A stretch of 9,563 bases of DNA, from IMG/VR virus record IMGVR_UViG_2703718802_000013, positions 1-9,563 of that record. One strand, 5' to 3'. The notes below the pieces were generated by a model. The model had not been told where the DNA came from, ran no database searches, and worked only from the letters and a program-made list of their open reading frames with translations. The position numbers were made by a program, and so were the translations under genes. This document shows positions 1 through 9,250 of the stretch, one piece after another; position 1 is the stretch's first letter; the number at the start of each line of letters is the position of its first letter. The DNA comes from a virus. Its lineage: Duplodnaviria > Heunggongvirae > Uroviricota > Caudoviricetes.

Positions 1-210
1 ATGCGTGAAATAAATGAAGATCGCGTAATCCGTGAGGATGAATGTCGTAAGTTAACTGGAGTGTGCCGCACTACACGTTACGAACTGGAGAAAAAAGGGC
101 GCTTTCCGTCACGTCTTAATCTGGGCGGTCGTTCTGTAGGGTGGCTGCTGTCCGAGGTTATGGAATGGGTTAAAAGCAGGGATCGCATTAATTCAGGTAA
201 GGCAGCGTAG
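1..210 (+). CDS. alpA: AlpA-family phage transcriptional regulator (small winged-HTH, excisionase-like)
   Basis: 69 aa ORF from the track. The segment RKLTGVCRTTRYELEKKGRFPSRLNLGGRSVGWLLSEVMEWV matches the AlpA/Vis pattern (HTH followed by G.FP...LG.RSVGW...EV..W) as I recall it. The ORF begins at window position 1, so the true start could lie upstream. Confidence 0.7.
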   Translation: MREINEDRVIREDECRKLTGVCRTTRYELEKKGRFPSRLNLGGRSVGWLLSEVMEWVKSRDRINSGKAA

Positions 211-287
211 GGGGAACATATGACACATAAAACAAAGGCGACCTGGGGCGGTCGCCAATGGGAAAACACTAAACATAAGCCCGAACA

Positions 288-503
288 TCATAGCGATTTG
301 CTGGCTGGTGGGCAATTATCTTGCTTGTTGGGGCCGTATTGTGCTGCCATTTTCATCCGTTCAGAACGTGAATATTTTTTTAGAAACTCATCAAGGACAA
401 AAGCGCATGGTGCGAATCTTTCTGATTCATGCTCTGGCGCCATATTTTCGTGCTCTCTGTCCGTTTTTTGCGATGGTGTATTGGTTGATTCTTTGTTGGT
501 CAT
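288..503 (-). CDS. small hypothetical protein (71 aa), partner gene of RHH cassette 1; paralog of 954-1181
   Basis: Track ORF starting MTN. Its C-terminal region (FVLDEFLKKYSRSER) resembles that of the 954-1181 product (FALEDFVDKYPRRLK). It sits 57 nt downstream, on the minus strand, of the RHH gene 561-734, and the intergenic element is conserved with the one before 954-1181. The SD is weak. Confidence 0.4.
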   Translation of the reverse strand: MTNKESTNTPSQKTDREHENMAPEHESERFAPCAFVLDEFLKKYSRSERMKMAAQYGPNKQDNCPPASKSL

Positions 504-560
504 TGTGTGTACCTGTAAAGCAATGCGCCGTAGTACCTCACGCCACGGCGCTGATGTTTT

Positions 561-734
561 TTATCCTTTGGGTTCAATACCGCGTTGCTGTAATTCTTTT
601 CGGAGTACTCGCTTGATCCAGGTGGCTAAAGAAGTGTCACCGTCTGCTTTCGCTGCCTCTTCAAGTTGTGCTCTGAATTCTTCTGGTAGCCGCATTTGGT
701 ATGGAGGCGATCGCTTTTCCAATGGTGTTGACAT
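561..734 (-). CDS. ribbon-helix-helix (Arc/MetJ-like) DNA-binding protein, 57 aa
   Basis: Not in the ORF track because it is under 60 aa. My minus-strand translation is MSTPLEKRSPPYQMRLPEEFRAQLEEAAKADGDTSLATWIKRVLRKELQQRGIEPKG. The beta-strand then two-helix pattern (YQMRLPEEF...LATWIKRVLRKEL) resembles Arc-type repressors. The start codon overlaps a palindromic operator. Confidence 0.5.
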   Translation of the reverse strand: MSTPLEKRSPPYQMRLPEEFRAQLEEAAKADGDTSLATWIKRVLRKELQQRGIEPKG

Positions 735-776
735 GGTAATTACCCTTAATTACTATAGTTACATGGTAATTACCAT
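733..776. promoter_or_regulatory. two copies of a palindromic operator-like site (ATGGTAATTACC at 733-744; perfect 14-bp palindrome ATGGTAATTACCAT at 763-776)
   Basis: Read directly from the sequence. GGTAATTACC is self-complementary. The two copies are 30 bp apart and overlap the start codon and presumptive promoter of the minus-strand RHH gene 561-734. Confidence 0.45.
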
Positions 777-792
777 TGTACTTACCGTTATA

Positions 793-834
793 CAAAAAAC
801 AACGCCCCGCAGTGGTGGCTCACATACGGGGCGT
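793..834 (-). terminator. hairpin (ACGCCCCG / CGGGGCGT, 8-bp stem) followed by a T-run on the minus strand
   Basis: Stem arms at 802-809 and 827-834 with a 17-nt loop. The plus-strand A-run 794-800 reads as a T-run on the minus strand. It lies downstream of minus-strand gene 954-1181. It could instead be an RNA structural element of the duplicated module. Confidence 0.4.
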
Positions 835-865
835 CTAACCAAACCATTAATTGAGGTAACGATTA

Positions 866-920
866 TGGCTATAAAAGAGCATAGCTTACTCTTTATACAC
901 ACACAAACGCCCCGGAAACG
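866..920 (+). pseudogene. 5' remnant of an Icd-like gene (first ~18 codons only)
   Basis: ATG at 866 with a GAGG RBS. The translation MAIKEHSLLFIHTQT parallels MVAVNHIPHLVHTQT at the start of the Icd-like gene 1604-1801. Homology is lost after about 55 nt and no FVWRF or TEREAR motif follows. Confidence 0.3.
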
Positions 921-953
921 GAATAATCCGTTTCATAGTTCGGTTTTGTGCAC

Positions 954-1181
954 TCATCCTGGCGGTCGGTTTTTGCCGGATTTAAGCCGCCGTGGGTATT
1001 TATCGACAAAATCTTCAAGGGCAAATTTTTCTGGTGGCATTAAGCGCGGCGCTGGTGGTGGTATTTTTGTTCTGGTTAGTTCTTCCTCAACTCTGGCGCA
1101 GGCTTCTGACTGCCTTTGCCGGATGATTTCATCATCTTGCGTTTGCGTGTCTTGTATTGGTGATAGTGTGTTGTTGGTCAT
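954..1181 (-). CDS. small hypothetical protein (75 aa), partner gene of RHH cassette 2; paralog of 288-503
   Basis: Track ORF starting MTN. It lies directly downstream, on the minus strand, of RHH-like gene 1239-1418, separated by a conserved ~50 bp element that contains a hairpin. Confidence 0.4.
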   Translation of the reverse strand: MTNNTLSPIQDTQTQDDEIIRQRQSEACARVEEELTRTKIPPPAPRLMPPEKFALEDFVDKYPRRLKSGKNRPPG

Positions 1182-1238
1182 GATACTGCCCTGTAAAGTA
1201 ATGCGCCATAGTACCTCACGCCACGGCGCTGATAGTGA

Positions 1239-1418
1239 TTATTCTGATTCTTTGGCCTTGCGACGCTGGCGGCGTTTGATTTCGCCGCGCATGGCAGTAA
1301 CGATAAATTGTGCGTCTGTTTCGTTTTCTTCTTTTACCAAATTCATTTCGCTTAAAACGTCTAGAGGTACTCTAGCAGTTTTTTGTTGTGACTTGTTGTT
1401 GGTTGTACCTGTTGGCAT
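1239..1418 (-). CDS. small DNA-binding protein, probably ribbon-helix-helix (59 aa)
   Basis: Shares the track ORF 1239-1586 frame, but I start it at the internal ATG at 1418, which is preceded by a strong SD (minus-strand AGGAGAACAGAG then ATG). The product MPTGTTNNKSQQKTARVPLDVLSEMNLVKEENETDAQFIVTAMRGEIKRRQRRKAKESE aligns loosely with the 561-734 RHH protein (RLPEEF...LATWIKRVLRKEL versus RVPLDV...AQFIVTAMRGEIKR). Confidence 0.45.
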   Translation of the reverse strand: MPTGTTNNKSQQKTARVPLDVLSEMNLVKEENETDAQFIVTAMRGEIKRRQRRKAKESE

Positions 1419-1484
1419 CTCTGTTCTCCTTACTGTTAGGTGGTGTTCAGTATACGGAGAAAAAAAAATAAAAAAAGACTTGAA

Positions 1485-1529
1485 GTGCAAGTCACCTAAA
1501 AGTAACCTAGATTTCAAGGTGACTTGCAC
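1485..1529. promoter_or_regulatory. perfect 13-bp inverted repeat GTGCAAGTCACCT - N19 - AGGTGACTTGCAC (operator-like) in the divergent intergenic region
   Basis: Read directly. It lies between the minus-strand RHH-like gene (start 1418) and the plus-strand Icd-like gene (start 1604). A TATACT -10-like hexamer for the minus-strand gene is at 1451-1456. Confidence 0.45.
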
Positions 1530-1530
1530 C

Positions 1531-1572
1531 AAAAAAACAACGCCCCACAGTGCTGGAACACATGCAGGGCGT
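1531..1572 (-). terminator. hairpin (ACGCCC / GGGCGT) with a minus-strand T-run; paralog of the 793-834 element
   Basis: Stem arms at 1540-1545 and 1567-1572. The plus-strand A-run 1531-1539 is a T-run on the minus strand. About 75 percent identical by eye to 793-834 and its flank. Function uncertain (terminator or RNA structure). Confidence 0.35.
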
Positions 1573-1603
1573 CTAACCACAAACACTATAGAGAGGTAAA
1601 TTT

Positions 1604-1801
1604 ATGGTTGCCGTAAATCATATACCACACCTTGTACACACACAAACTGCCTTTGTGTGGCGTTTTCTGGCACTGAGTGCCGGAGAATCTCAAATCATCC
1701 ACGTAACCGCCTGGACGGAACGCGAAGCGCGTAACCTTTGCCCGTCCGATTGTGTTGCTGTATACGCCGCCCGTATTCGCCAGGGGTCACATCATGCGTA
1801 A
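1604..1801 (+). CDS. Icd-like small protein (host cell division inhibitor Icd-like family), 65 aa
   Basis: Track ORF with RBS GAGAGG. The motifs FVWRF ... TEREAR ... AARIRQG match what I recall of the Icd-like proteins annotated in enterobacterial P4-like and PICI elements. Paralogous to 2088-2261. Confidence 0.5.
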   Translation: MVAVNHIPHLVHTQTAFVWRFLALSAGESQIIHVTAWTEREARNLCPSDCVAVYAARIRQGSHHA

Positions 1802-1988
1802 AAACCGCTTGCAAAAAATTATAACGGGGCTGTATGCTTCCCCCGTCGCCCACATGGCGACCGGGTTTAGCAGCCTGAATACTACAGCGGACAGCCGCTT
1901 ACATTCCGATATGCGGTTTTTTTGTGTCCGTAAGCCTACCCATACCCGCATTATGGCGGGGCGTAACGGGGGAGCCTTTGCGCTCGCT

Positions 1989-2081
1989 GGTTCCTGTAGT
2001 GCCAGTCTGCTAACCCTGTTACGTCTCGCCACCCCGTTTAGCAGCGTAGTAGCGAGACTCCTTAATTTCACTACAGGAGCC
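1989..2081 (+). promoter_or_regulatory. candidate antisense pairing pair: 1989-2003 (GGTTCCTGTAGTGCC) is complementary to the RBS region of the second Icd-like gene at 2068-2081 (TCACTACAGGAGCC)
   Basis: The reverse complement of 1989-2003 is GGCACTACAGGAACC, against ACTACAGGAGCC at the RBS: 12 contiguous pairs if one G-U wobble is allowed, covering the AGGAG SD. This resembles the seqB/seqC logic of P4 CI RNA and P1 c4 RNA. RNA boundaries are unknown. Confidence 0.3.
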
Positions 2082-2087
2082 TTTCAC

Positions 2088-2261
2088 ATGGCTGTATCCG
2101 CACGCCCTTACTTTGTCTGGCGCTTTATGCAGTGCCACCACAGCAGCATTGCAATATTCACCGTTACCGCTGCCACTGAGTGCGAAGCCCGCGCCCAGCT
2201 GCCGCGCGCACATCTGATTTTTGTCGCCCGCATTCGCCAGGGGGAAACCTATGCACAATAA
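2088..2261 (+). CDS. Icd-like small protein, second paralog (57 aa)
   Basis: Internal ATG at 2088 of track ORF 1752-2261, preceded by AGGAG at 2075-2079 with an 8-nt spacer. The product MAVSARPYFVWRFMQ...TECEARAQLP...FVARIRQGETYAQ shares FVWRF, EAR and ARIRQG with 1604-1801. Confidence 0.5.
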   Translation: MAVSARPYFVWRFMQCHHSSIAIFTVTAATECEARAQLPRAHLIFVARIRQGETYAQ

Positions 2262-2481
2262 AACCACACCGGACGCAGCAGAAGAAGCAATGCAAATACT
2301 GATACGTGCGCTCGTTGATGTTACCCACATGGTGGAGATTATGGAGAGAAAATCACAGTCGGAGCACGACAAAAGAAAACTTAAAACAATAAAAATAATT
2401 GCCAAAAACTCGCTGATAAAAGTTACAGACATCCTTAATGAGGACATTAAAAGAATAAGGGAGAAAATTTGTGATGCATAA
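2251..2481 (+). CDS. hypothetical protein (76 aa)
   Basis: ATG at 2251 preceded by AGGGGGA. It overlaps the end of the Icd-like gene and sits in the same-strand operon leading to the primase. No recognisable motif. Confidence 0.4.
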   Translation: MHNKTTPDAAEEAMQILIRALVDVTHMVEIMERKSQSEHDKRKLKTIKIIAKNSLIKVTDILNEDIKRIREKICDA

Positions 2482-2701
2482 AATCCCTTTTGAAGTATTA
2501 ATCCACTCTGAAAACGCATTAATTAAAGCACGCGAAATGAATGCGTTGTTAATTAAATTAATTGAAGTGCCGGAAGGTGGTGAGGAATCAGGTGTATTAA
2601 TGTTTGCAGCCATTCAGACATTACTATCGCCTGTTATTGATGAACTGGATAAGGCAATGGCAATTCACGAAAATAATAACGCGCCCCACACCGGAGAATA
2701 A
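2474..2701 (+). CDS. hypothetical protein (75 aa)
   Basis: ATG at 2474 (the track starts at GTG 2471), with GGGAG upstream. Overlaps the previous ORF by a few nt. No recognisable motif. Confidence 0.4.
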   Translation: MHKIPFEVLIHSENALIKAREMNALLIKLIEVPEGGEESGVLMFAAIQTLLSPVIDELDKAMAIHENNNAPHTGE

Positions 2702-2706
2702 AAATA

Positions 2707-3006
2707 ATGAAACTTAAATATTCTGGCTTAACTGCCAGTGGCAACACTCACCCTAAATTTACGCGCGGTGATATTTACCGCGACCAGTACGGCGGCACGG
2801 TAATGATTAAGGGCGTGGCGGGACGGTGCGTAACTTACCGCCGTGAAGGTTACGAATATGATTGCGTGATGCCTGTTTATCAGTTCCGGCGTGATTTTTC
2901 TCTGGTACAGACCGCGCCGCATAACGTGCCCACCAGCAGGGAGAAAGCACGCGCCAATATTCAGGAAATAAAAAAGATGCTTAACGTATTCAGGGGTAAA
3001 AAATGA
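2707..3006 (+). CDS. hypothetical protein (99 aa)
   Basis: Track ORF with RBS GGAGAA about 9 nt upstream. Its stop overlaps the start of the primase gene (3003), suggesting translational coupling. Confidence 0.45.
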   Translation: MKLKYSGLTASGNTHPKFTRGDIYRDQYGGTVMIKGVAGRCVTYRREGYEYDCVMPVYQFRRDFSLVQTAPHNVPTSREKARANIQEIKKMLNVFRGKK

Positions 3007-5147
3007 AACTGGCACCGAACGTAAAACAGCAGTCACGCGGCATAAAACACAAAGAAACAGAAGTCATTATTTTTGCGGGTAGTGATGCCTGGTCACACGC
3101 AAAACAATGGCAGGAACATGACGCGCGTATGGCCGGAGATAATGAGCCTCCTGTGTGGCTTGGGGAGCAGCAGTTATCCGAACTGGATAAGCTGCAAATT
3201 GTGCCGGAAGGCAGAAAATCAGTACGCATATTCAGGGCCGGACATCTTGAGCCAGTAATGATCAAGGCGATTGGTCAGAAACTGGCGGCGGCAGGCGTAC
3301 AGGATGCAAATTTTTACCCTGAGGGAATGCACGTTCAGAAGGTGGAGAACTGGCGCGAATATCTGGCCCGTGAGCGGCAGAATCTTTCTGATGGTCTGGT
3401 TATTGAGCTTCCGGTAAAGAAAAAAGATACCGGAAGTCATAGCGATGACGAATTAAAGCCACGCGTTGAAAGTCGCGCCGATGGTGTTTTCTGGGTAACG
3501 CCCAAAGTGGATAAGCAGTCAGGCGAAATTATCCGGCCTGAGACGTGGTTATGTTCTCCGCTTGAACTACTGGGAACGGGGACGATCGGTAAAGAGCATT
3601 ACCGCGTGATGCGCTGGAAAAAAACCGCAAACCATGAAGTCATCACAATGGCGATCCCGTGTGGTGGTATCGGCGACCGTGACGGCTGGCGGTTACTTAA
3701 AGATCACGGGCTGAACGTGACAACCAACGGCAAATACAGGGCAATCCTGGCGGACTGGATGCAGTTAAGCGGAAGCCATGAGGAATGGCAGTTAAGCACA
3801 ACAACGGGCTGGCATTTTGGCGCGTACATCATGCCGGACGGTTCGATCATTGGTGATTCTGAAAAACCGATCCTGTTTACCGGAAAAAGCGCCGCGATTA
3901 ACGGTTATTCCGTGGCGGGTACGGCGGAGGGCTGGCGCGAGAGTGTGGCGCGGCTGGCTGGCGGTAATGCCTCAATGATGCTGGGTGTGGCAACGTCACT
4001 GGCAGCGCCTTTAATTGGCCTTGTGGGTGCTGACGGCTTCGGGGTGCATCTTTTCGAACAGTCATCGGCAGGTAAGACCACCACGCAGAACATCGCATCA
4101 AGTTTATGGGGAGAGCCGGACGCGCAGCGGCTGACCTGGTACGGCACGGCGTTAGGTATTGCCAATGAGGCCGAGGCCCATAATGACGGGCTTTTACCAC
4201 TGGATGAGATAGGCCAGGCCGGAAATGCGCGGGAAGTGTCAACGTCTGCTTATACGCTGTTTAACGGTTCAGGGAAATTGCAGGGGGCGAAGGATGGCGG
4301 CAACAGGGAGATCAAACACTGGCGAACGGTGGCAATCAGCACCGGAGAAATGGACGTTGAGACATTCCTCAAAAGTGAGGGGATAAAAGTTAAGGCGGGG
4401 CAGCTTGTCCGACTGCTTAACGTTCCGATGGAAAAAGCCACGAAATTTCACGAATACAGCAACGGTAAGGAACATGCTGACGCGTTAAAGGATGCCTGGA
4501 CAGCAAATCACGGGGCGGCGGGTCGTGAGTGGGTTAAATGGCTGGCAGGCCACCAGCAGGAGGCAAAGGACACGGTAAGGGAATGCCGCGAACGGTGGCG
4601 CAACCTGATACCGGAGAGTTACGGCGAGCAGGTCCACCGCGTGGGTGAACGTTTCGCCATACTGGAGGCCGCGCTTGTGCTTTCCGGTCATGTAACTGGC
4701 TGGGTCGTGCAGGAATGCCGCGACGCGATACAGCATAACTTTAATGCCTGGGTGAAAGAGTTCGGTACGGGCAACAGGGAACACAGGCAGATTATTGAAC
4801 AGGCTGAGGCGTTTCTTGCGGCCTATGGCCTGAGCAGGTTCGCCCCTGTCAATTATGACCCTGCCAGCCTGCCGATTTCAGAACTGTACGGCTACAGGGA
4901 AAGCGACGGGCGTTATGACGAGCCTGTTTTGTTTTACGTGCTGCCGGAGCCGTTTAGCTCACATGTGGCGAAGGGATTTAACAAGGATGCCGTAGCAAAG
5001 ACCCTTCATGAAGCCGGAATGCTGAGAAAACCAGCCAGCGGGCGGGGATGGCAAATCAGGACACCACGACTAAAACACCTGAAAGGGGCGCGGCTAAGAG
5101 TGTATGGCCTTTTGCTGACGCAGGACCACGATGCTGAAAATGATTAA
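3003..5147 (+). CDS. satellite-type primase/replication initiator (P4 alpha-like or PICI Pri-Rep-like, with a P-loop NTPase motif)
   Basis: 714 aa track ORF with an AGGGG RBS. It contains a deviant Walker A-like motif (SSAGKTT, encoded around 4068-4090). Its size and its position just upstream of an iteron array match replication proteins of P4-like and PICI elements. The domain assignment (DUF927-like) is from memory, not a search. Confidence 0.65.
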   Translation: MKLAPNVKQQSRGIKHKETEVIIFAGSDAWSHAKQWQEHDARMAGDNEPPVWLGEQQLSELDKLQIVPEGRKSVRIFRAGHLEPVMIKAIGQKLAAAGVQDANFYPEGMHVQKVENWREYLARERQNLSDGLVIELPVKKKDTGSHSDDELKPRVESRADGVFWVTPKVDKQSGEIIRPETWLCSPLELLGTGTIGKEHYRVMRWKKTANHEVITMAIPCGGIGDRDGWRLLKDHGLNVTTNGKYRAILADWMQLSGSHEEWQLSTTTGWHFGAYIMPDGSIIGDSEKPILFTGKSAAINGYSVAGTAEGWRESVARLAGGNASMMLGVATSLAAPLIGLVGADGFGVHLFEQSSAGKTTTQNIASSLWGEPDAQRLTWYGTALGIANEAEAHNDGLLPLDEIGQAGNAREVSTSAYTLFNGSGKLQGAKDGGNREIKHWRTVAISTGEMDVETFLKSEGIKVKAGQLVRLLNVPMEKATKFHEYSNGKEHADALKDAWTANHGAAGREWVKWLAGHQQEAKDTVRECRERWRNLIPESYGEQVHRVGERFAILEAALVLSGHVTGWVVQECRDAIQHNFNAWVKEFGTGNREHRQIIEQAEAFLAAYGLSRFAPVNYDPASLPISELYGYRESDGRYDEPVLFYVLPEPFSSHVAKGFNKDAVAKTLHEAGMLRKPASGRGWQIRTPRLKHLKGARLRVYGLLLTQDHDAEND

Positions 5148-5172: not shown

Positions 5173-5474
5173 GTTGTCCCAGTCGTCCCAGTAAGCAACA
5201 AGCAATCGTAACACATTGAATTACATAAATTTCACTTACAAAAAGTGGGACAACAGCGGGACAACATTCAGGCATTTTGGGACAACATAGCGGCATTTTG
5301 GGACGACACGACACGTATTTTTTACCGTGCTGGAGGGTGGGACAACACAAAAACCCTCATGTCGTCCCAAAATCGCCTTATGTCGTCCCACTTTGTGGAG
5401 TATGTTTTTAATAAAATCAACAGGTTAACATTAAGTGGGACAACCGGGACAACTGGGACGACGTGTTTTGTATA
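5173..5474. repeat. iteron array (about 12 copies of GGGAC(A/G)AC in both orientations) with an adjacent AT-rich stretch; presumptive origin of replication
   Basis: Read directly. Plus-orientation copies are at 5247, 5258, 5279, 5300, 5339, 5447, 5456 and about 5465. Minus-orientation copies (GTTGTCCC or GTCGTCCC) are at 5173, 5182, 5361 and 5382. AT-rich TGTATATATATAC lies at 5477-5490. It is immediately downstream of the replication gene. Confidence 0.6.
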
Positions 5475-5502: not shown

Positions 5503-5751
5503 ATGAAGTTAAACCGCAAACAACCACACTACCGCGCCATTGACCTTACAGAGCACTGGCTGAGAGTGGCGATAAAAATCATCGACCGCAACACGGTGGA
5601 AGGATACGCGAAAGCACATCCCGAACTGATAAGCGCATTCATGACCACAGCGGCGGCAAACTTTGCCACGCTGACAGAACGGGAGATTGCCGAAGCGGAA
5701 CAGGTAACAACCATCAACGTAAAAACCGGAGAGTCAGGCGATGATACATGA
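5503..5751 (+). CDS. hypothetical protein (82 aa)
   Basis: Track ORF following the iteron region. No recognisable motif. Confidence 0.45.
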   Translation: MKLNRKQPHYRAIDLTEHWLRVAIKIIDRNTVEGYAKAHPELISAFMTTAAANFATLTEREIAEAEQVTTINVKTGESGDDT

Positions 5752-5989
5752 CCGCATAGCGGAGGAACTCGAGGCGAAAGGATTTTACCGGAGGGCGGCG
5801 GCGCGATGGGGTGAAGTCATGCAGCTGGTGGAGACAGACAAGGAACGGCATCAGGTTACGATGCGACGGCTGGAATGTTCCAGGAAGGCACAGAGGCCAC
5901 CGGAGCCGCCAACGGAGAACTATGCAGACCTGAGAAATGCAGTAAATCGCACTTACGCAGACATGGGGCTGAGCAAATTAGCAGAGTAG
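5741..5989 (+). CDS. small regulator, possibly PerC-family transcriptional activator (82 aa)
   Basis: ATG at 5741 preceded by GGAGAG with a 7-nt spacer. The N-terminus MIHDRIAEELEAKGFYRRAAARW resembles my recollection of PerC-like proteins common in P4-like islands. The family assignment is tentative. Confidence 0.45.
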   Translation: MIHDRIAEELEAKGFYRRAAARWGEVMQLVETDKERHQVTMRRLECSRKAQRPPEPPTENYADLRNAVNRTYADMGLSKLAE

Positions 5990-6012
5990 GAATACCAGAA
6001 CCACACCACACA

Positions 6013-6034
6013 GCCGGAGCAATCCGGCTTTTTT
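6013..6034 (+). terminator. rho-independent terminator (GCCGGA-gcaa-TCCGGC followed by TTTTTT)
   Basis: Read directly: stem arms at 6013-6018 and 6023-6028, T-run 6029-6034, downstream of the 5741-5989 stop. Confidence 0.6.
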
Positions 6035-6040
6035 GCGCCC

Positions 6041-6082
6041 AAAAAAAGCCCGATAAGGTCAGAGGTGGCTTATCGGGCTTTT
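6041..6082. terminator. second, bidirectional-looking terminator (A7 - GCCCGATAAG ... CTTATCGGGC - T4)
   Basis: Read directly: 10-bp stem arms at 6048-6057 and 6069-6078, flanked by an A-run and a T-run. Confidence 0.6.
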
Positions 6083-6158
6083 GCATATGAGGCTTTTTGG
6101 TGCACTGACACACATGATCGGGATAATCATTTCATAATTTGCAATACAACTCAATATC

Positions 6159-6190
6159 ATTGCACAAAATGCAATCATGATTATAATCAT
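6159..6190 (+). promoter_or_regulatory. near-consensus sigma-70 promoter (TTGCAC - N16 - TATAAT) embedded in two dyad elements
   Basis: -35 TTGCAC at 6160-6165 and -10 TATAAT at 6182-6187. The dyad ATTGCA-caaaa-TGCAAT (6159-6175) overlaps the -35, and the perfect 14-bp palindrome ATGATTATAATCAT (6177-6190) contains the -10. It lies 54 bp upstream of the capsid operon start at 6244. Confidence 0.5.
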
Positions 6191-6243
6191 AACTGGATGA
6201 ACATACAGTTATGATTTTTTAAGTCAAAGAGGAATTTCTTACT

Positions 6244-6450
6244 ATGGCTGAAGAGAAAAAAGGCGGTGTTTCGGTGTACATAAGCCCCGACATCGTGAAG
6301 GCGCTCAAGGAACGCCACCAGCAGAACGTAAAAGCAGGCATTGCGGCAGGACTTGATCCGCTGGCGATGGTTGAGCCGTCAACAGGCTGGCAGGTACGCG
6401 CCTATTTACGCGCGGCGCTGGGTATGAATCAGGTTCACGGGGGTGAATAA
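6244..6450 (+). CDS. hypothetical small protein (68 aa), first gene of the capsid operon
   Basis: Track ORF with RBS AAGAGGA. Its stop overlaps the start of the capsid gene (TAATG at 6448-6452). No recognisable homolog. Confidence 0.5.
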   Translation: MAEEKKGGVSVYISPDIVKALKERHQQNVKAGIAAGLDPLAMVEPSTGWQVRAYLRAALGMNQVHGGE

Positions 6451-7505
6451 TGACAGGCAAAGCAACAGCACTTACCACTAATCAGCTTTTCACGTACCTG
6501 AATCGCGGGGATATTGCGGAATTTAAATTCAGTCCGCTGTTTACCACGCTGTTTTTCCCGAACGTGGCGACATTCAGCACCCAAAACATCATGCTGGATA
6601 CCCTGGACATTGAAGAAGTCACCATGTCGGCGTTTTGTTCGCCTATGGTTGGCAGCCAGGTCCAGCGCGATAAAGGGTACGAAACCAGCACGATTAAACC
6701 AGGCTACATGAAGCCAAAGCACGAAATCGATCCAACAAAAACCATCATGCGCATGGCTGGAGAAGATCCGGCACAGCTTAACGACCCTACCTACCGACGT
6801 ATGCGCCTTATTACTGGCAACATGCGCCGCCAGATAAACGCCATTAAAGCGCGCGTGGAATGGCTGGCGGTGAATGTGATAACGACCGGAAAAAACATCA
6901 TTGAGGGCGAAGGCATAGAACGCTATGAAATCGACTGGAAAATACCGGAAAACTGCATCATAGAGCAGGCCAAGGGTAAAAAATGGTCCGAGCATGATAA
7001 AGATATTTACGATCCAATCTATGACATCGAACTATACGCAGATCAGGCAGGTTGCCCCGCCAACGTCATGATTATGGGCGCTGAGGTATGGCGCACGTTA
7101 CGCAGCTTTAAAAAATTCCGCGAACTGTACGATCTTTCCCGTGGTTCAGAATCCGCCGCAGAACTGGCCTGTAAAAACCTGGGTGAAGTAGTGAGCTTTA
7201 AAGGCTATCTGGGCGATATTGCCCTTATCGTCTATTCCGGCAAATACACTGACAGCGACGGTACCGAAAAATATTTCCTTGAGCCTGATTTGCTGGTCCT
7301 GGGTAACACCAACAACAAAGGGCTGGTGGCCTATGGTGCGATTATGGATCAGGAAGCTGTAAGAACAGGCGCAACGCAAAACATGTACTACCCGAAAAAC
7401 TGGATTGAGGACGGCGATCCGGCGATTGAGTACGTGCAGACGCACAGCGCACCGCAGCCGGTACCGGCAGACATTCGCAAATTTGTTACCGTCAAAATTG
7501 GTTAA
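6450..7505 (+). CDS. major capsid protein, lambda gpE family
   Basis: 351 aa. Several blocks match lambda gpE as I recall it: FKFSPLF..LFF (lambda FKFDPLF..LFF), KPGYMKPKHEIDP (TPGYVKPKHEVNP), EDPAQLNDPTYRR (EDPQNLADPAYRR), SFKGYLGDIALIVYSG (SYKGMYGDVAIVVYSG), YPKNWIEDGDPA...SAP (YPKNWVTTGDPA...SAP). Confidence 0.8.
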   Translation: MTGKATALTTNQLFTYLNRGDIAEFKFSPLFTTLFFPNVATFSTQNIMLDTLDIEEVTMSAFCSPMVGSQVQRDKGYETSTIKPGYMKPKHEIDPTKTIMRMAGEDPAQLNDPTYRRMRLITGNMRRQINAIKARVEWLAVNVITTGKNIIEGEGIERYEIDWKIPENCIIEQAKGKKWSEHDKDIYDPIYDIELYADQAGCPANVMIMGAEVWRTLRSFKKFRELYDLSRGSESAAELACKNLGEVVSFKGYLGDIALIVYSGKYTDSDGTEKYFLEPDLLVLGNTNNKGLVAYGAIMDQEAVRTGATQNMYYPKNWIEDGDPAIEYVQTHSAPQPVPADIRKFVTVKIG

Positions 7506-7516
7506 CTGGGGATTCT

Positions 7517-7852
7517 ATGAACACTCCATACATTGAGTTATTTGCAGGCAGTCAGCAGGTATCAACGACGCTGGTACATTTTGCCGCTGATGCTGGCTTT
7601 ATTCAGGAATTTACCCCGCTGATGCTGTCAGACAATGGCGAGTTTAAGCCGTGGGATGGTCAGGAATCTGGCAAGGCTGTTTATCTGACTTCGTACCCCG
7701 TGGACACGTCGACGCAGAAATCAGCACAGTGTTACAAGACGGGGATATTTAATATCGCCGCCGTAAACTGGCCTGAGAGCGCCGACACTGACGCGAAAAA
7801 ATGCGCCGCCTTTGCGGGTTCTGGCGTATCCGTTCAGCCGCTGGCGCGATAA
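7517..7852 (+). CDS. head decoration protein, lambda gpD family
   Basis: 111 aa. TPLMLSDNGEFKPWDG matches lambda gpD TPLMLDTSSRKLVAWDG, and KTGIFNIAAVNWPESADTDAKKCAAFAGSGVSVQ matches [34 protein letters not shown], both from memory. Confidence 0.75.
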   Translation: MNTPYIELFAGSQQVSTTLVHFAADAGFIQEFTPLMLSDNGEFKPWDGQESGKAVYLTSYPVDTSTQKSAQCYKTGIFNIAAVNWPESADTDAKKCAAFAGSGVSVQPLAR

Positions 7853-7864
7853 GCAGGGGAAACG

Positions 7865-8278
7865 ATGGCAACGAATGAAAGCATCATGGCGCTACCGCTG
7901 GCGAGTAAATTTAAAGCAGAAGCGCGGGCAATGGCTGACAGAGGTTTATCAACCTACGAGGCCGTATATCAACTCAACAAACTGGAAGAGCAGGACAAGC
8001 CGCGCGCTGATGCGATTATGGCGCTTCATGAACATAACGACTATCAGCCGCTGTTACGTGCAATGGCAAACGTGCCATGTATTAGCGTCGATAATGCTCG
8101 TGAAATCCTGAACATGACCATAGAGCAGGAGCGCCCAAAGGTTGCGCCGGAGCTTACCGCAGCCTTTGAAAACTTTATGGACATGCACAGCCCGAAAGCC
8201 GTATCACCCGGCATGGCATACGACGGCAGAAACCAGGGCGATGAAGGCGACGTCGATCGCATACTGAAAACCATCTGA
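7865..8278 (+). CDS. hypothetical protein (137 aa), last gene of the capsid operon
   Basis: Track ORF with RBS GGGGAA, followed directly by a terminator. I see no similarity to lambda FI, FII or W. Function unknown. Confidence 0.5.
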   Translation: MATNESIMALPLASKFKAEARAMADRGLSTYEAVYQLNKLEEQDKPRADAIMALHEHNDYQPLLRAMANVPCISVDNAREILNMTIEQERPKVAPELTAAFENFMDMHSPKAVSPGMAYDGRNQGDEGDVDRILKTI

Positions 8279-8307: not shown

Positions 8308-8470
8308 ACGGGTCCTTTCCGGCATATGGACCCGTTACGGGGCGGCGACCTCGCGGTTTTTCGCTATTTATGAGCTTTTTCAGGGTGGTGGTGGTGGTTT
8401 TGTTGTTTGCTCTATCTTTATGAATAAAAAGGGAAATATAAAACCAATACACCAACCTGAAACCTTAACT
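8308..8470 (+). other. lambda-type cohesive-end site cos1: cosQ-like flank, cosN (GGGCGGCGACCT at 8340-8351), and a divergent cosB-like region
   Basis: TTACGGGTCCTTTCCGG...GTTACG-GGGCGGCGACCT-CGCGGTTTTTCGCTATTTATGA closely matches the lambda right-end/left-end junction as I recall it (TTTACGGGTCCTTTCCGG...GGTTACG-GGGCGGCGACCT-CGCGGGTTTTCGCTATTTATGAAAATTTTCCGG). Beyond about 8375 it diverges from lambda cosB, with a (GGT)n tract at 8385-8398 and AT-rich sequence. Confidence 0.7.
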
Positions 8471-8484
8471 AAGTGGGGATATTG

Positions 8485-9027
8485 ATGAAATCGCACCTGA
8501 TGAACAAAAAAACTATGGCGCAAAGCTGCCGTGTAAGTGCGACAGCGTTCGACAAGTGGGGAGTGACTCCCGTTGAACGTAAAGGCCGCGAGGCTTTTTA
8601 CGATGTTGCCAGCGTGATAGACAATCGGGTAAGCAATGCAATTGACCAGGTTACAAACGACAAAGGCGATATCGACGATGATGAACTTTTACGCGTAAGA
8701 ATCCGATTACTGACGGCCCAGGCGGAGGCGCAGGAGCTTAAAAACGAGCGCGAACGCGGCGACGTGATTGATACAGGTTTTTGCCTGTACGCGCTTTCAA
8801 AGCTGGCGAGCCAGATTTCATCAATCATGGACAGCCTCCCGCTGACTATGCAAAGGAGCTTCCCACAGATTACCCCCGCCATGCTGGATAGGCTTAAAAG
8901 GGAAGTGGTTAAAGCCTGTAATGCCAGTGCCAGAGTTGCCGACAACCTCCCACAGATACTGGCTGATTACTTGAAAGAAACAACCGGAAACGTACCGGAA
9001 AAGTTGCTACAGAAGAAAGGCGAGTAA
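8485..9027 (+). CDS. terminase small subunit, lambda Nu1 family
   Basis: Same frame as track ORF 8473-9027. LTAQAEAQELKNERERGDVIDTGFCLYALSKLASQISSIMDSLPLTMQRSFP matches lambda Nu1 LTRAQADAQELKNARDSAEVVETAFCTFVLSRIAGEIASILDGLPLSVQRRFP, and the N-terminal NKK..wHTH region and C-terminal tail also align. I chose the ATG at 8485 (GGGGA SD); the ATG at 8500 is also possible. Confidence 0.75.
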   Translation: MKSHLMNKKTMAQSCRVSATAFDKWGVTPVERKGREAFYDVASVIDNRVSNAIDQVTNDKGDIDDDELLRVRIRLLTAQAEAQELKNERERGDVIDTGFCLYALSKLASQISSIMDSLPLTMQRSFPQITPAMLDRLKREVVKACNASARVADNLPQILADYLKETTGNVPEKLLQKKGE

Positions 9028-9054: not shown

Positions 9055-9116
9055 AGAAAGGATCTGATAATGGCATTTTCTGGCTAAAATGCCATTATCA
9101 GATCCTTTCTTTTTTT
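9055..9116. terminator. perfect 25-bp inverted repeat (AGAAAGGATCTGATAATGGCATTTT / AAAATGCCATTATCAGATCCTTTCT) with a 6-nt loop, followed by T6
   Basis: Read directly. It acts as a strong intrinsic terminator after the Nu1-like gene. It also occupies the position, relative to the inverted cos2, where lambda has its own cosB inverted repeat. Confidence 0.6.
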
Positions 9117-9119
9117 AAT

Positions 9120-9250
9120 ATTTTCATTGTTAAACAGTCTGTTACAGAGAAGAAGAACGGATCTGACTTTTGCCGGAAAATTTTCATAAACAGATAAAAA
9201 CCGCGAGGTCGCCGCCCCGTAACGGGCCATAATTCCAGGAAGGACCCGAC
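9120..9250 (-). other. second lambda-type cos site (cos2) in inverted orientation: cosN reverse complement at 9205-9216, lambda-like cosB on the minus strand
   Basis: The minus strand reads GTTACG-GGGCGGCGACCT-CGCGGTTTTTATCTGTTTATGAAAATTTTCCGGCAAAAG...TCCGTTCTTCTTC. This matches recalled lambda cosB (CTATTTATGAAAATTTTCCGG...TCCGTTCTTCTTCG) better than cos1 does. The cosQ-like flank lies at 9217-9250 on the plus strand. Confidence 0.65.

What the first reader, a model, noticed from the sequence alone, without database searches (positions are those of the whole stretch)
6100..6243. Capsid operon is driven by a near-consensus sigma-70 promoter buried in palindromes
TTGCAC-N16-TATAAT (6160-6187) is close to consensus. 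That is unexpected for a morphogenesis operon in a satellite, which normally needs helper activation. The -35 sits inside the dyad ATTGCA-N5-TGCAAT, and the -10 sits inside the perfect palindrome ATGATTATAATCAT (6177-6190). This suggests the operon is held off by a repressor rather than switched on by an activator. That repressor could be one of the RHH proteins, a helper repressor, or the PerC-like protein acting as an anti-repressor.
Basis: seen in the sequence. Interest (0 to 1): 0.5.

Follow-up and report, generated by a model that had tools for sequence, protein, structure and literature searches.

The report
SOS (LexA) box guarding satellite capsid promoter
The promoter in front of this E. 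coli phage satellite's capsid and packaging genes carries a strong, conserved binding site for the host DNA-damage repressor LexA, so the operon is probably switched on by the same SOS signal that wakes the helper prophage, as already known for staphylococcal satellites.

Summary
"Near-consensus" is too strong. The -10 is a perfect TATAAT, but the -35 (TTGCAC) matches 3 of 6 and the spacer is 16 bp. Nineteen sites in the window match as well by count.

AACTGGATGAACATACAGTT (6191-6210) starts 3 bp after the -10 and covers the predicted start site. It scores like the recA and sulA SOS boxes (HI 5.2, 22.5 bits; next best in the window 8.4 bits). No random control reached it.

All 31 distinct E. 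coli-type promoter variants keep the CTG and CAG triplets; they vary only where LexA tolerates change. Salmonella-type satellites keep the box too. A Lelliottia satellite has a box at the same place in otherwise unalignable DNA.

The -35 dyad is real and extends to ATnATTGCA-N5-TGCAATnAT. It has a degenerate second copy 30 bp upstream and recurs in four further lineages; its binder is unknown. The 14-bp palindrome is mostly the self-complementary ATTATAAT; its outer pair varies freely.

Best reading: a LexA-repressed, SOS-inducible sigma-70 promoter plus a second unidentified operator. This parallels SaPI operon I. No experiment supports it yet.

The parts
6012..6035 (+). Intrinsic terminator after the PerC-like gene: AGCCGGAGCAATCCGGCT followed by a T-run.
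   Evidence: Terminator scan. RNA fold of 6005-6100 gives -40.8 kcal/mol, z -4.1.
6044..6087 (.). Second, bidirectional-looking terminator hairpin. It has 14-nt perfect arms (AAAAGCCCGATAAG / CTTATCGGGCTTTT), with an A-run before and a T-run after. It insulates the capsid operon from upstream transcription.
   Evidence: Inverted repeat I1, fold, conserved in all 9 E. coli copies.
6126..6148 (.). Distal, degenerate copy of the TTGCA dyad: ATCATTTCA-N5-TGCAAT. It contains the palindromic TTGCAA at 6139-6144 and is centred near -57.
   Evidence: Direct repeat D1, 30-bp spacing. One-mismatch match. The conserved block begins here even in E. coli copies that diverge further upstream.
6156..6178 (.). 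Proximal dyad ATCATTGCA-N5-TGCAATCAT. It overlaps the -35 and the spacer and is centred near -27. It is a candidate operator for an unidentified second regulator.
   Evidence: Inverted repeat I9. Exact match, unique in the window. Present in Salmonella-type, Edwardsiella (two copies), E. coli type B and Lelliottia relatives.
6160..6165 (+). -35 hexamer TTGCAC. Three of six positions match; the TTG core is conserved.
6182..6187 (+). -10 hexamer TATAAT (6 of 6). It is invariant in 31 distinct type-A promoters and in Salmonella-type relatives. It reads TAAAAT in type B.
6177..6190 (.). 14-bp perfect palindrome ATGATTATAATCAT around the -10. The core TGATTATAATCA is conserved within E. coli, but the outer pair is not constrained.
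   Evidence: Broken in Salmonella-type loci.
6191..6210 (.). LexA (SOS) box AACTGGATGAACATACAGTT, with core CTG-N10-CAG at 6193-6208. It starts 3 bp after the -10 and covers the predicted start site (about 6192-6196).
   Evidence: HI 5.18 and 22.5 bits, against 8.4 bits for the next best site in the window. None of 300 random windows and none of 3000 random intergenic sequences reach it. One site with HI below 8 in 1.04 Mb of control DNA. Conservation pattern.
6185..6220 (+). Extended inverted repeat (15-nt arms 6185-6199 and 6202-6216) followed by a T-run. It would fold as a terminator-like hairpin only in RNA that starts upstream of the promoter.
   Evidence: Inverted repeat I2. Folds at -13.8 kcal/mol here and -19.9 in the majority variant. 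The flanks do not covary. The hairpin is not kept in Salmonella or Lelliottia.
6228..6234 (+). Shine-Dalgarno sequence AGAGGAA for the first ORF.
   Evidence: Read. Invariant in the alignments.
6244..6450 (+). First gene of the operon: a 68-aa protein (phrog_3255) of unknown function. Its stop overlaps the capsid start (TAATG).
   Evidence: AF2 model has two helices, pLDDT 74.6. No fold or family match.
6450..7505 (+). Lambda gpE-like major capsid protein.
   Evidence: PF03864, E 7e-50. phrog_29.
7517..7852 (+). Lambda gpD-like head decoration protein.
   Evidence: PF02924. phrog_49.
7865..8278 (+). 137-aa protein whose residues 45-119 resemble the C-terminal part of a head maturation protease, which suggests a scaffold-like role.
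   Evidence: phrog_1999, and phrog_53 over residues 45-119.
8473..9027 (+). Nu1-like small terminase subunit.
   Evidence: PF07471. phrog_57.

Best explanation
Region 6100-6243 is the promoter and operator region of the capsid and packaging operon of an EcCICFT073-related E. coli phage-inducible chromosomal island. The operon encodes a 68-aa protein, a gpE-like capsid protein, a gpD-like decoration protein, a scaffold-like protein and a Nu1-like TerS.

Two terminators (6012-6087) isolate the operon from upstream transcription. Transcription starts from TTGCAC-N16-TATAAT at about 6192-6196 (inferred, not mapped). A host LexA dimer bound to the SOS box at 6191-6210 sits over the start site. It blocks open-complex formation or promoter escape in undamaged cells (inferred from sequence score, geometry and conservation).

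DNA damage activates RecA, which triggers LexA self-cleavage. That is the same signal that induces a lambdoid helper prophage, so it would derepress the operon as the helper enters lytic growth. An array of TTGCA half-sites overlapping the -35 (centres near -27 and -57) is probably a second operator for a regulator I could not identify. That would give two-input control.
For: Site strength:
- The box scores HI 5.18 and 22.5 bits on a matrix of 26 E. coli SOS boxes. That is within the range of recA (5.56) and sulA (5.36).
- Six of those 26 boxes were verified exactly in K-12 promoter regions.
- The next best site in the window scores 8.4 bits. None of 300 random 9.5-kb sequences and none of 3000 AT-rich 144-nt sequences reach 22.5 bits.
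- 1.04 Mb of unrelated viral DNA contains one site with HI below 8.

Geometry:
- The box begins 3 bp after a perfect -10 and covers the predicted +1.

Conservation:
- Nine E. coli copies at 81-99% identity all keep the box.
- 31 distinct type-A promoters from IMG/VR keep CTG, CAG and TATAAT invariant.
- Variation is confined to the box centre (6199-6201), to C/A at 6205, and to the left flank (6190-6192). That is 1 of 12 half-site columns variable against 6 of 7 centre and flank columns (p=0.0017).
- Salmonella-type loci (capsid 68% identical) keep GACTGGATGAAAATCCAGTA while the -10 palindrome is broken.
- A Lelliottia satellite (capsid 58% identical) has CACTGTTTTTTCATACAGTT (HI 5.8) 45 nt before the orthologous first ORF, in otherwise unalignable DNA.

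Precedent:
- SaPI operon I is LexA-controlled (PMC5052747).
Against: - There is no experimental evidence for LexA binding, SOS induction or the start site.
- The box is absent from several related lineages: E. coli type B, Edwardsiella, ERZ17991793, and all rpp-type and Kluyvera-like satellites. LexA control is therefore not universal or essential for this module.
- The scoring matrix was built from boxes recalled from memory; only 6 of the 26 were checked against the genome.
- In Gram-negative PICIs the known induction route is helper-dependent AlpA, and alpA expression is not SOS-dependent (PMC6092414). LexA would therefore be an added layer, not the master switch.
- Helper infection without SOS would leave the operon repressed unless another route exists.
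- The conserved TTGCA array overlapping the -35 shows that LexA is not the whole story.
- Within E. coli the whole 120-bp block is highly conserved, which weakens the footprint argument there.
Confidence: 0.62

Rival explanations
1. The palindromes at the -35 (ATTGCA-N5-TGCAAT) and the -10 (ATGATTATAATCAT) are the operators of an island-encoded or helper-encoded repressor: an RHH protein or a helper CI, with PerC as anti-repressor. The LexA-like sequence is incidental.
For: - The -35 dyad is conserved across genera and has a second copy 30 bp upstream.
- Its centre near -27 is a position where a bound protein would occlude RNA polymerase.
- The dyad co-occurs with the small first ORF: 7 of 8 lineages with the ORF have it, against 0 of 8 without (p=0.0014).
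- ATSAT pentamers are clustered here, with 7 of the window's 32 lying in 100 bp.
Against: - The outer pair of the -10 palindrome shows no covariation, and the palindrome is broken in Salmonella-type loci.
- There is no support for an RHH fold in the 68-aa protein.
- No PerC gene is adjacent in four promoter-bearing islands.
- No phage operator cluster carrying the dyad was found.
- A 22.5-bit LexA box kept through sequence turnover in three lineages is very unlikely to be incidental.
- The dyad and small-ORF co-occurrence may simply reflect inheritance as one block.
Confidence: 0.12
2. The TTGCA/TGCAA/TTGCAA half-sites are bound by the host nucleoside-responsive repressor CytR. That would explain why the same pentamer recurs, inverted or direct and with variable spacing, upstream of capsid genes in satellites from many enterobacterial genera.
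For: - CytR operators are described as TGCAA/TTGCA pentamers, as TTGCAA, or as GTTGCATT octamers. They occur in inverted or direct orientation, with spacers from 0 to 3 helical turns (PMC3454398).
- Real K-12 operators show the same pentamers: udp has TTGCA...TGCAA, and nupG has two TTGCAA.
- The window has TTGCAA (6139-6144), TTGCA (6160-6164) and TGCAA (6170-6174).
- Kluyvera, Kosakonia, Superficieibacter and rpp-type E. coli satellites have direct repeats with a 10-bp period (TTGC-N6-TTGC), triple in the first three. One Kluyvera repeat is an exact GTTGCATT.
Against: - All known CytR-regulated promoters carry at least one CRP site (PMC3454398). Here only 3-mismatch CRP matches occur, at chance frequency (31 found, 32 expected).
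- Octamer-level matches are not above background in AT-rich DNA (P(>=3)=0.73).
- There is no obvious biological reason for nucleoside control of a capsid operon.
- The resemblance rests on a 5-bp word.
Confidence: 0.1
3. The extended palindrome 6185-6216 plus the T-run is primarily an intrinsic terminator or attenuator. It would be a third barrier to read-through from the replication and PerC module. The operon would then be expressed by antitermination, for example by an AlpA-like or Q-like factor, rather than by LexA derepression.
For: - RNA spanning 6176-6226 folds into a hairpin followed by U6. The energy is -13.8 kcal/mol (z -4.1) here and -19.9 (z -6.8) in the majority variant.
- Gram-negative PICIs are described as transcribed unidirectionally rightward (PMC6092414).
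Against: - The stem is AT-rich.
- Variation in the left flank (6190-6192) is not compensated on the right.
- In Salmonella-type and Lelliottia loci the hairpin shrinks to 5-6 bp, or the U-run is displaced, yet the LexA consensus persists.
- A transcript starting at the predicted +1 lacks the left arm and has no significant structure (z -0.7).
Confidence: 0.06
4. The promoter is essentially constitutive. The LexA-like box and the dyads have little regulatory effect, and control of particle formation lies elsewhere, for example in copy number after AlpA-driven replication or in the supply of helper proteins.
For: - The promoter has a perfect -10 with a TTG core at the -35.
- Type B relatives lack the box yet keep the operon.
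- No expression data exist for this promoter type.
Against: - Conservation is selective: the LexA half-sites are held while adjacent positions vary.
- A box persists at the same place in the otherwise unalignable Lelliottia promoter.
Confidence: 0.08

Closest known systems
SaPI operon I, the LexA-controlled packaging and interference operon of Staphylococcus aureus pathogenicity islands (Ubeda et al. 2007, as cited in PMC5052747)
   Same: In both cases a phage satellite places its packaging and capsid module, including a terS homologue, under the host SOS repressor. Expression is thereby coupled to the signal that induces helper prophages. In both, the operon lies downstream of the replication module.
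   Different: There is no sequence homology. The host is Gram-negative and the LexA box is the E. coli-type CTG-N10-CAG. The gene content is lambda-like (gpE, gpD and Nu1 homologues) rather than cpmAB, pti and terS. LexA control here is predicted, not shown. It is present in only some lineages of the family. A second conserved operator overlaps the -35.
Chromosomal E. coli SOS promoters (verified here: recA, lexA, sulA, umuDC, ruvAB) and, from memory, colicin promoters, which carry a LexA box close to or overlapping the promoter core
   Same: The box has the same consensus and similar strength. The majority variant CTGGATGAACATCCAG differs from the ruvAB box CTGGATATCTATCCAG only in the central four bases. 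The operator overlaps the start site.
   Different: The element is carried on a mobile satellite and drives virion structural genes. It is combined with an additional dyad array at -27 and -57.
EcCICFT073 and related Gram-negative PICIs (PMC6092414, PMC6739421)
   Same: The window carries the same gene families: a DUF4222 (RgdR-type) protein, a primase, a PerC-like protein, capsid and head-decoration homologues, lambda-type cos sequences, and a TerS or Rpp packaging module. About 11% of complete E. coli genomes (597 of 5426) carry this promoter region.
   Different: The published regulation concerns AlpA, which depends on the helper and not on SOS. I found no description of the packaging-operon promoter or of a LexA box in the searchable literature. 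The rpp-type relatives, which have an AlpA-like gene after the decoration gene as in the published EcCICFT073 type, lack both the small first ORF and the LexA box.
CytR operators (PMC3454398)
   Same: Both use TTGCA, TGCAA and TTGCAA half-sites in flexible orientation and spacing.
   Different: There are no flanking CRP sites here. Membership is not supported.

Membership tests
E. coli LexA (SOS) box | A 16-bp CTG-N10-CAG palindrome with an A/T-rich centre inside the 20-bp consensus TACTGTATATATATACAGTA. | tested here: met
   CTGGATGAACATACAG lies at 6193-6208. The 20-mer is AACTGGATGAACATACAGTT. The strict consensus with 3 or fewer mismatches does not match, as is true of many genuine boxes.
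E. coli LexA (SOS) box | A heterology index or PWM score within the range of experimentally bound boxes. | tested here: met
   HI 5.18 and 22.5 bits. The training boxes range from HI 2.1 to 12.1. Six training boxes were verified in K-12. The matrix was recalled from memory, so absolute HI values are approximate.
E. coli LexA (SOS) box | The site overlaps or adjoins the core promoter of the regulated gene. | tested here: met
   The box starts 3 bp after TATAAT and covers the predicted +1. The start site itself is not mapped.
E. coli LexA (SOS) box | The half-sites are conserved in orthologous promoters while the spacer and flanks drift. | tested here: met
   1 of 12 half-site columns is variable against 6 of 7 centre and flank columns, p=0.0017.
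E. coli LexA (SOS) box | LexA binds in vitro, and induction in vivo depends on RecA and LexA. | not testable with these tools
   No applicable expression data. The EDL933 datasets concern an island with a different capsid module.
Sigma-70 promoter | A -10 hexamer close to TATAAT. | tested here: met
   Six of six at 6182-6187, invariant in relatives.
Sigma-70 promoter | A -35 hexamer close to TTGACA with a 16-18 bp spacer. | tested here: inconclusive
   TTGCAC matches 3 of 6 (the TTG core) with a 16-bp spacer. It was not listed by the scan. Nineteen sites in the window score 9 of 12 or better.
Sigma-70 promoter | A mapped transcription start. | not testable with these tools
   Needs 5' RACE or dRNA-seq.
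LexA-controlled satellite packaging operon (SaPI operon I type) | The satellite packaging and capsid genes, including terS, form one unit downstream of the replication module. | tested here: met
LexA-controlled satellite packaging operon (SaPI operon I type) | Sequence homology to SaPI operon I genes. | not tested
   No direct comparison with SaPI proteins was run. The gene families found here are lambda-like: PF03864, PF02924 and PF07471. The relation is treated as analogy only.
CytR operator | TTGCA or TGCAA half-sites with flexible spacing and orientation. | tested here: met
   motif description in PMC3454398.
CytR operator | At least one flanking cAMP-CRP site. | tested here: not met
   Only 3-mismatch matches, at chance frequency.
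Ribbon-helix-helix repressor (68-aa first gene product) | A detectable RHH family or fold. | tested here: not met
Lambda CII-type activator site | TTGC-N6-TTGC straddling the -35. | tested here: not met
   No matches in the window. The pattern is present in rpp-type and Kluyvera-like relatives.

The most novel reading that the evidence does not exclude
A widespread lineage of Gram-negative PICIs has independently put its capsid and terminase operon under host LexA, converging on the SaPI solution. It combines this with a second dedicated operator: a TTGCA array bound by an unknown island, helper or host factor. Particle genes would then fire only when SOS and a second signal coincide. About 11% of complete E. 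coli genomes carry this promoter region, as do Salmonella and Lelliottia relatives.
Probability: 0.3. Interest if true: 0.55.

Novelty: new member of a known kind. Interest (0 to 1): 0.42.

Why it matters
How Gram-negative PICIs time expression of their packaging genes is not described in the literature I could search. Only the helper-dependent AlpA step is. If this operon is LexA-controlled, SOS-inducing antibiotics would directly raise satellite capsid and terminase expression in the roughly one in nine complete E. coli genomes that carry this promoter region, which include Nissle 1917 and some O157 and O145 genomes. That would link antibiotic exposure to satellite-mediated gene transfer, as was shown for SaPIs. 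It would also be a case of convergent regulatory logic in unrelated satellites. The TTGCA array gives a concrete handle for finding a second regulator.

Tried and rejected
1. A single-protein search of species genomes for the capsid found nothing. An alignment-based search was needed.
4. A scan of viral contigs for the idealised dyad CATTGCA-N5-TGCAATG, looking for a helper-phage operator. It returned single chance hits with no operator clusters.
5. tblastn of the 68-aa protein against phage genomes gave no match.
6. An Rfam search of 5900-6500 found nothing near any gathering score.
7. CRP sites to support a CytR cassette occurred at chance level. CytR octamer scoring was not above background.
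8. AlpA as the dyad binder. The int to HTH-gene intergenic regions of two related islands carry no TTGCA array. This is only weak evidence against.
9. A minus-strand promoter using the mirrored TATAAT (6185-6180) has no acceptable -35 (read).
10. Literature searches for LexA together with Gram-negative PICI or cfPICI found only reference-list citations of the SaPI paper.

Full report
**What the window is.**
Pfam and PHROG scans and the best E. coli match show a roughly 11-kb phage satellite of the EcCICFT073-related PICI kind, inserted in caiT in strain 94-3024. The window carries these features:
- an Icd-like gene (1604-1801);
- a DUF4222 (RgdR-type) gene (2707-3006);
- a DUF927 primase (3003-5147);
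- tandem repeats at 5258-5459 that are probably replication-origin iterons;
- a PerC-like gene (5741-5989);
- two terminators (6012-6087);
- an operon encoding a 68-aa protein, a lambda gpE-like capsid protein, a gpD-like decoration protein, a 137-aa scaffold-like protein and a Nu1-like TerS.

The 461-bp region around the finding occurs in 597 of 5426 complete E. coli genomes.

**Checking the observation.**
"Near-consensus" overstates the case:
- The -10 is a perfect TATAAT, but TTGCAC matches TTGACA at 3 of 6 positions and the spacer is 16 bp. The consensus scan therefore did not list it.
- Nineteen sites in the window reach 9 of 12 matches. A TTGnnn-N16-18-TATAAT pattern turns up in 24% of random sequences of this size.
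- The promoter call instead rests on position and conservation. It is the only + strand TATAAT in the window. It lies behind two terminators and 57 nt before the first ORF. TATAAT is invariant in all relatives of this type.

The 14-bp palindrome is improbable by chance, but 8 of its bases are the inherently self-complementary ATTATAAT. The -35 dyad is larger than described. It has 9-nt arms (I9) and a degenerate second copy 30 bp upstream (D1).

**The missed element.**
AACTGGATGAACATACAGTT (6191-6210) begins three bases after the -10. It contains CTG-N10-CAG and lies at the centre of a 15-nt-arm inverted repeat (I2).
- I scored it with a symmetrised matrix of 26 E. coli SOS boxes. The boxes were recalled from memory. 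Six of them (recA, lexA1, lexA2, ruvA, sulA, umuD) were then confirmed exactly in K-12 promoter regions.
- The site has a heterology index of 5.18 and scores 22.5 bits. That is comparable to recA (5.56) and sulA (5.36).
- The next best site in the window scores 8.4 bits.
- None of 300 random 9.5-kb sequences and none of 3000 AT-rich 144-nt sequences reach it.
- 1.04 Mb of unrelated viral DNA holds a single site with HI below 8.

**Comparative evidence.**
- Nine E. coli copies at 81-99% identity all keep the box. Most read CTGGATGAACATCCAG, which differs from the ruvAB box only in its central four bases.
- An unbiased sample was drawn from IMG/VR using only the ribosome-binding region as bait. 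It gave 31 distinct promoters of this type.
- In that sample TATAAT, CTGGAT, CAT and CAG never vary. Variation is confined to the box centre (6199-6201), to C/A at 6205, and to the left flank (6190-6192). That is 1 of 12 half-site columns variable against 6 of 7 centre and flank columns (p=0.0017).
- Two Salmonella-type loci (capsid 68% identical) keep GACTGGATGAAAATCCAGTA. Their -10 palindrome is broken: ATGCTTATAATCAT and AAGATTATAATCAT.
- A Lelliottia satellite (capsid 58% identical) has a box, CACTGTTTTTTCATACAGTT (HI 5.8), 45 nt before the orthologous first ORF. The surrounding DNA is otherwise unalignable.
- The box is absent from a second E. coli promoter type, "type B", which also has a weaker -10 (TAAAAT). 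It is also absent from an Edwardsiella satellite, from another metagenomic lineage, and from all satellites that lack the small first ORF, including the rpp-type.

- The outer pair of the 14-bp palindrome (6177/6190) is among the most variable positions and does not covary: A-T 10, C-G 8, A-G 8, C-T 4, A-C 1 (p=0.28). The palindrome is not being maintained as such.
- The -35 dyad, by contrast, is conserved. TTGCA-N5-TGCAA, allowing one mismatch, occurs upstream of the first gene in 7 of 8 lineages that have the small ORF, and in none of 8 that lack it (p=0.0014). Edwardsiella carries two copies 32 bp apart.
- The site centres lie near -27 and -57. The proximal one would occlude RNA polymerase, so a second repressor is plausible. 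It could not be identified.

Candidates examined for the dyad binder:
- The 68-aa protein looked RHH-like by eye, but no family, PDB, fold or profile comparison supports that. Its TAATG overlap with the capsid start suggests instead a structural partner of the capsid protein; this is inference only.
- PerC is not adjacent in four promoter-bearing islands.
- The int to HTH-gene regions of two related islands lack the motif, which argues weakly against AlpA.
- Host CytR recognises TTGCA, TGCAA and TTGCAA in flexible arrangements (PMC3454398). However, no CRP site flanks the array and the octamer match is at background level.

**Mechanism proposed.**
- Shown by sequence: a conserved -10, a strong LexA-type site directly over the predicted start, two upstream terminators, and a conserved TTGCA array overlapping the -35.
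- Inferred: LexA binds and blocks initiation in undamaged cells. RecA-stimulated LexA cleavage derepresses the capsid and terminase operon at the same time as a lambdoid helper prophage is induced. A second factor at the TTGCA array adds another input.

This is the logic already shown for SaPI operon I (PMC5052747, citing Ubeda 2007). It is new for Gram-negative PICIs as far as the searchable literature goes. There, the described control is helper-dependent, SOS-independent AlpA (PMC6092414).

**A rival reading.**
The extended palindrome plus T-run could be an intrinsic terminator for read-through RNA. This is disfavoured for two reasons. The flanks do not covary. The hairpin decays in Salmonella and Lelliottia while the LexA consensus persists.

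**A caution on public expression data.**
The EDL933 ciprofloxacin and antibiotic datasets list a "CP-933C capsid" gene that is not induced. EDL933's island carries a different HK97-type capsid module with an unrelated upstream region. Those data are therefore not evidence for or against this promoter.

**Verdict.**
This is a new member of a known kind, of moderate interest, and directly testable.

Noticed in passing
window 8340-8351 (+), 9206-9217 (-) and 9059-9106: Two copies of the lambda cohesive-end sequence GGGCGGCGACCT lie in inverted orientation on either side of the Nu1-like terS gene. A perfect 20-bp-stem hairpin sits just after terS. These are probably the island's cos sites.
   Followed up: partly
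L010 about 2335-2365; equivalent regions of L020, L012 and L028, upstream of the capsid genes: Satellites that lack the small first ORF (Kluyvera, Kosakonia, Superficieibacter, rpp-type E. coli) carry direct repeats with a 10-bp period, triple in the first three, for example ATTGCACTctATTGCACAtgGTTGCATT. These fit TTGC-N6-TTGC, the lambda CII site pattern, and also CytR direct octamers. The chance of one such pair in 220 nt is below 1%.
   Followed up: partly
L001 6582-6601 and 6693-6712; L283 (EDL933 CP-933C) 1588-1607 and 1699-1718: Weaker LexA-like sites (HI 7.4-11.5) are conserved between the integrase gene and the HTH gene annotated next to int (probably alpA-like) in two related islands. 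Published work reports that alpA is not SOS-dependent.
   Followed up: no
L025, L026, L058, L062, L115, L133 and L144 (position equivalent to window 6176-6215): A second E. coli promoter type, "type B", keeps the TTGCA dyad and the ATGATT..AATCAT arms. It has TAAAAT instead of TATAAT, and CTGACTTTTCGTTATG in place of the LexA box. It looks like a natural loss-of-box variant, useful as a control.
   Followed up: partly
L283 7832-8125 compared with window 6030-6243: EDL933's CP-933C has a left arm with the same gene families (DUF4222, DUF927 primase, PerC family) as the island here. Beyond the first terminator after its last left-arm gene, its sequence is unrelated and it carries a complete HK97-type capsid, protease, portal and terminase module. 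In the EDL933 sequence the packaging-module boundary lies just after that terminator.
   Followed up: partly
window 6114-6215: Seven of the window's 32 ATGAT/ATCAT pentamers fall within 100 bp. They flank the dyads, the -10 and the LexA box. About 18 are expected in the whole window. This is unexplained; the pentamer may be part of the half-site ATSATTGCA.
   Followed up: partly
window 5258-5459: Tandem 21-bp and 9-bp repeats (GGGACAAC-type) lie just after the primase gene. They are probably the replication-origin iterons.
   Followed up: partly
window 220-1599: A 459-aa ORF has no Pfam or NCBIfam match. It is not an integrase, and the left end of the window differs from the closest E. coli island (L001).
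   Followed up: no
window 6448-6452: The stop codon of the 68-aa ORF overlaps the capsid start codon (TAATG), which implies translational coupling. The small protein is found only with this capsid type and has no tblastn match in phage genomes. It could be a capsid-associated protein such as a scaffold or size determinant, rather than a regulator.
   Followed up: partly
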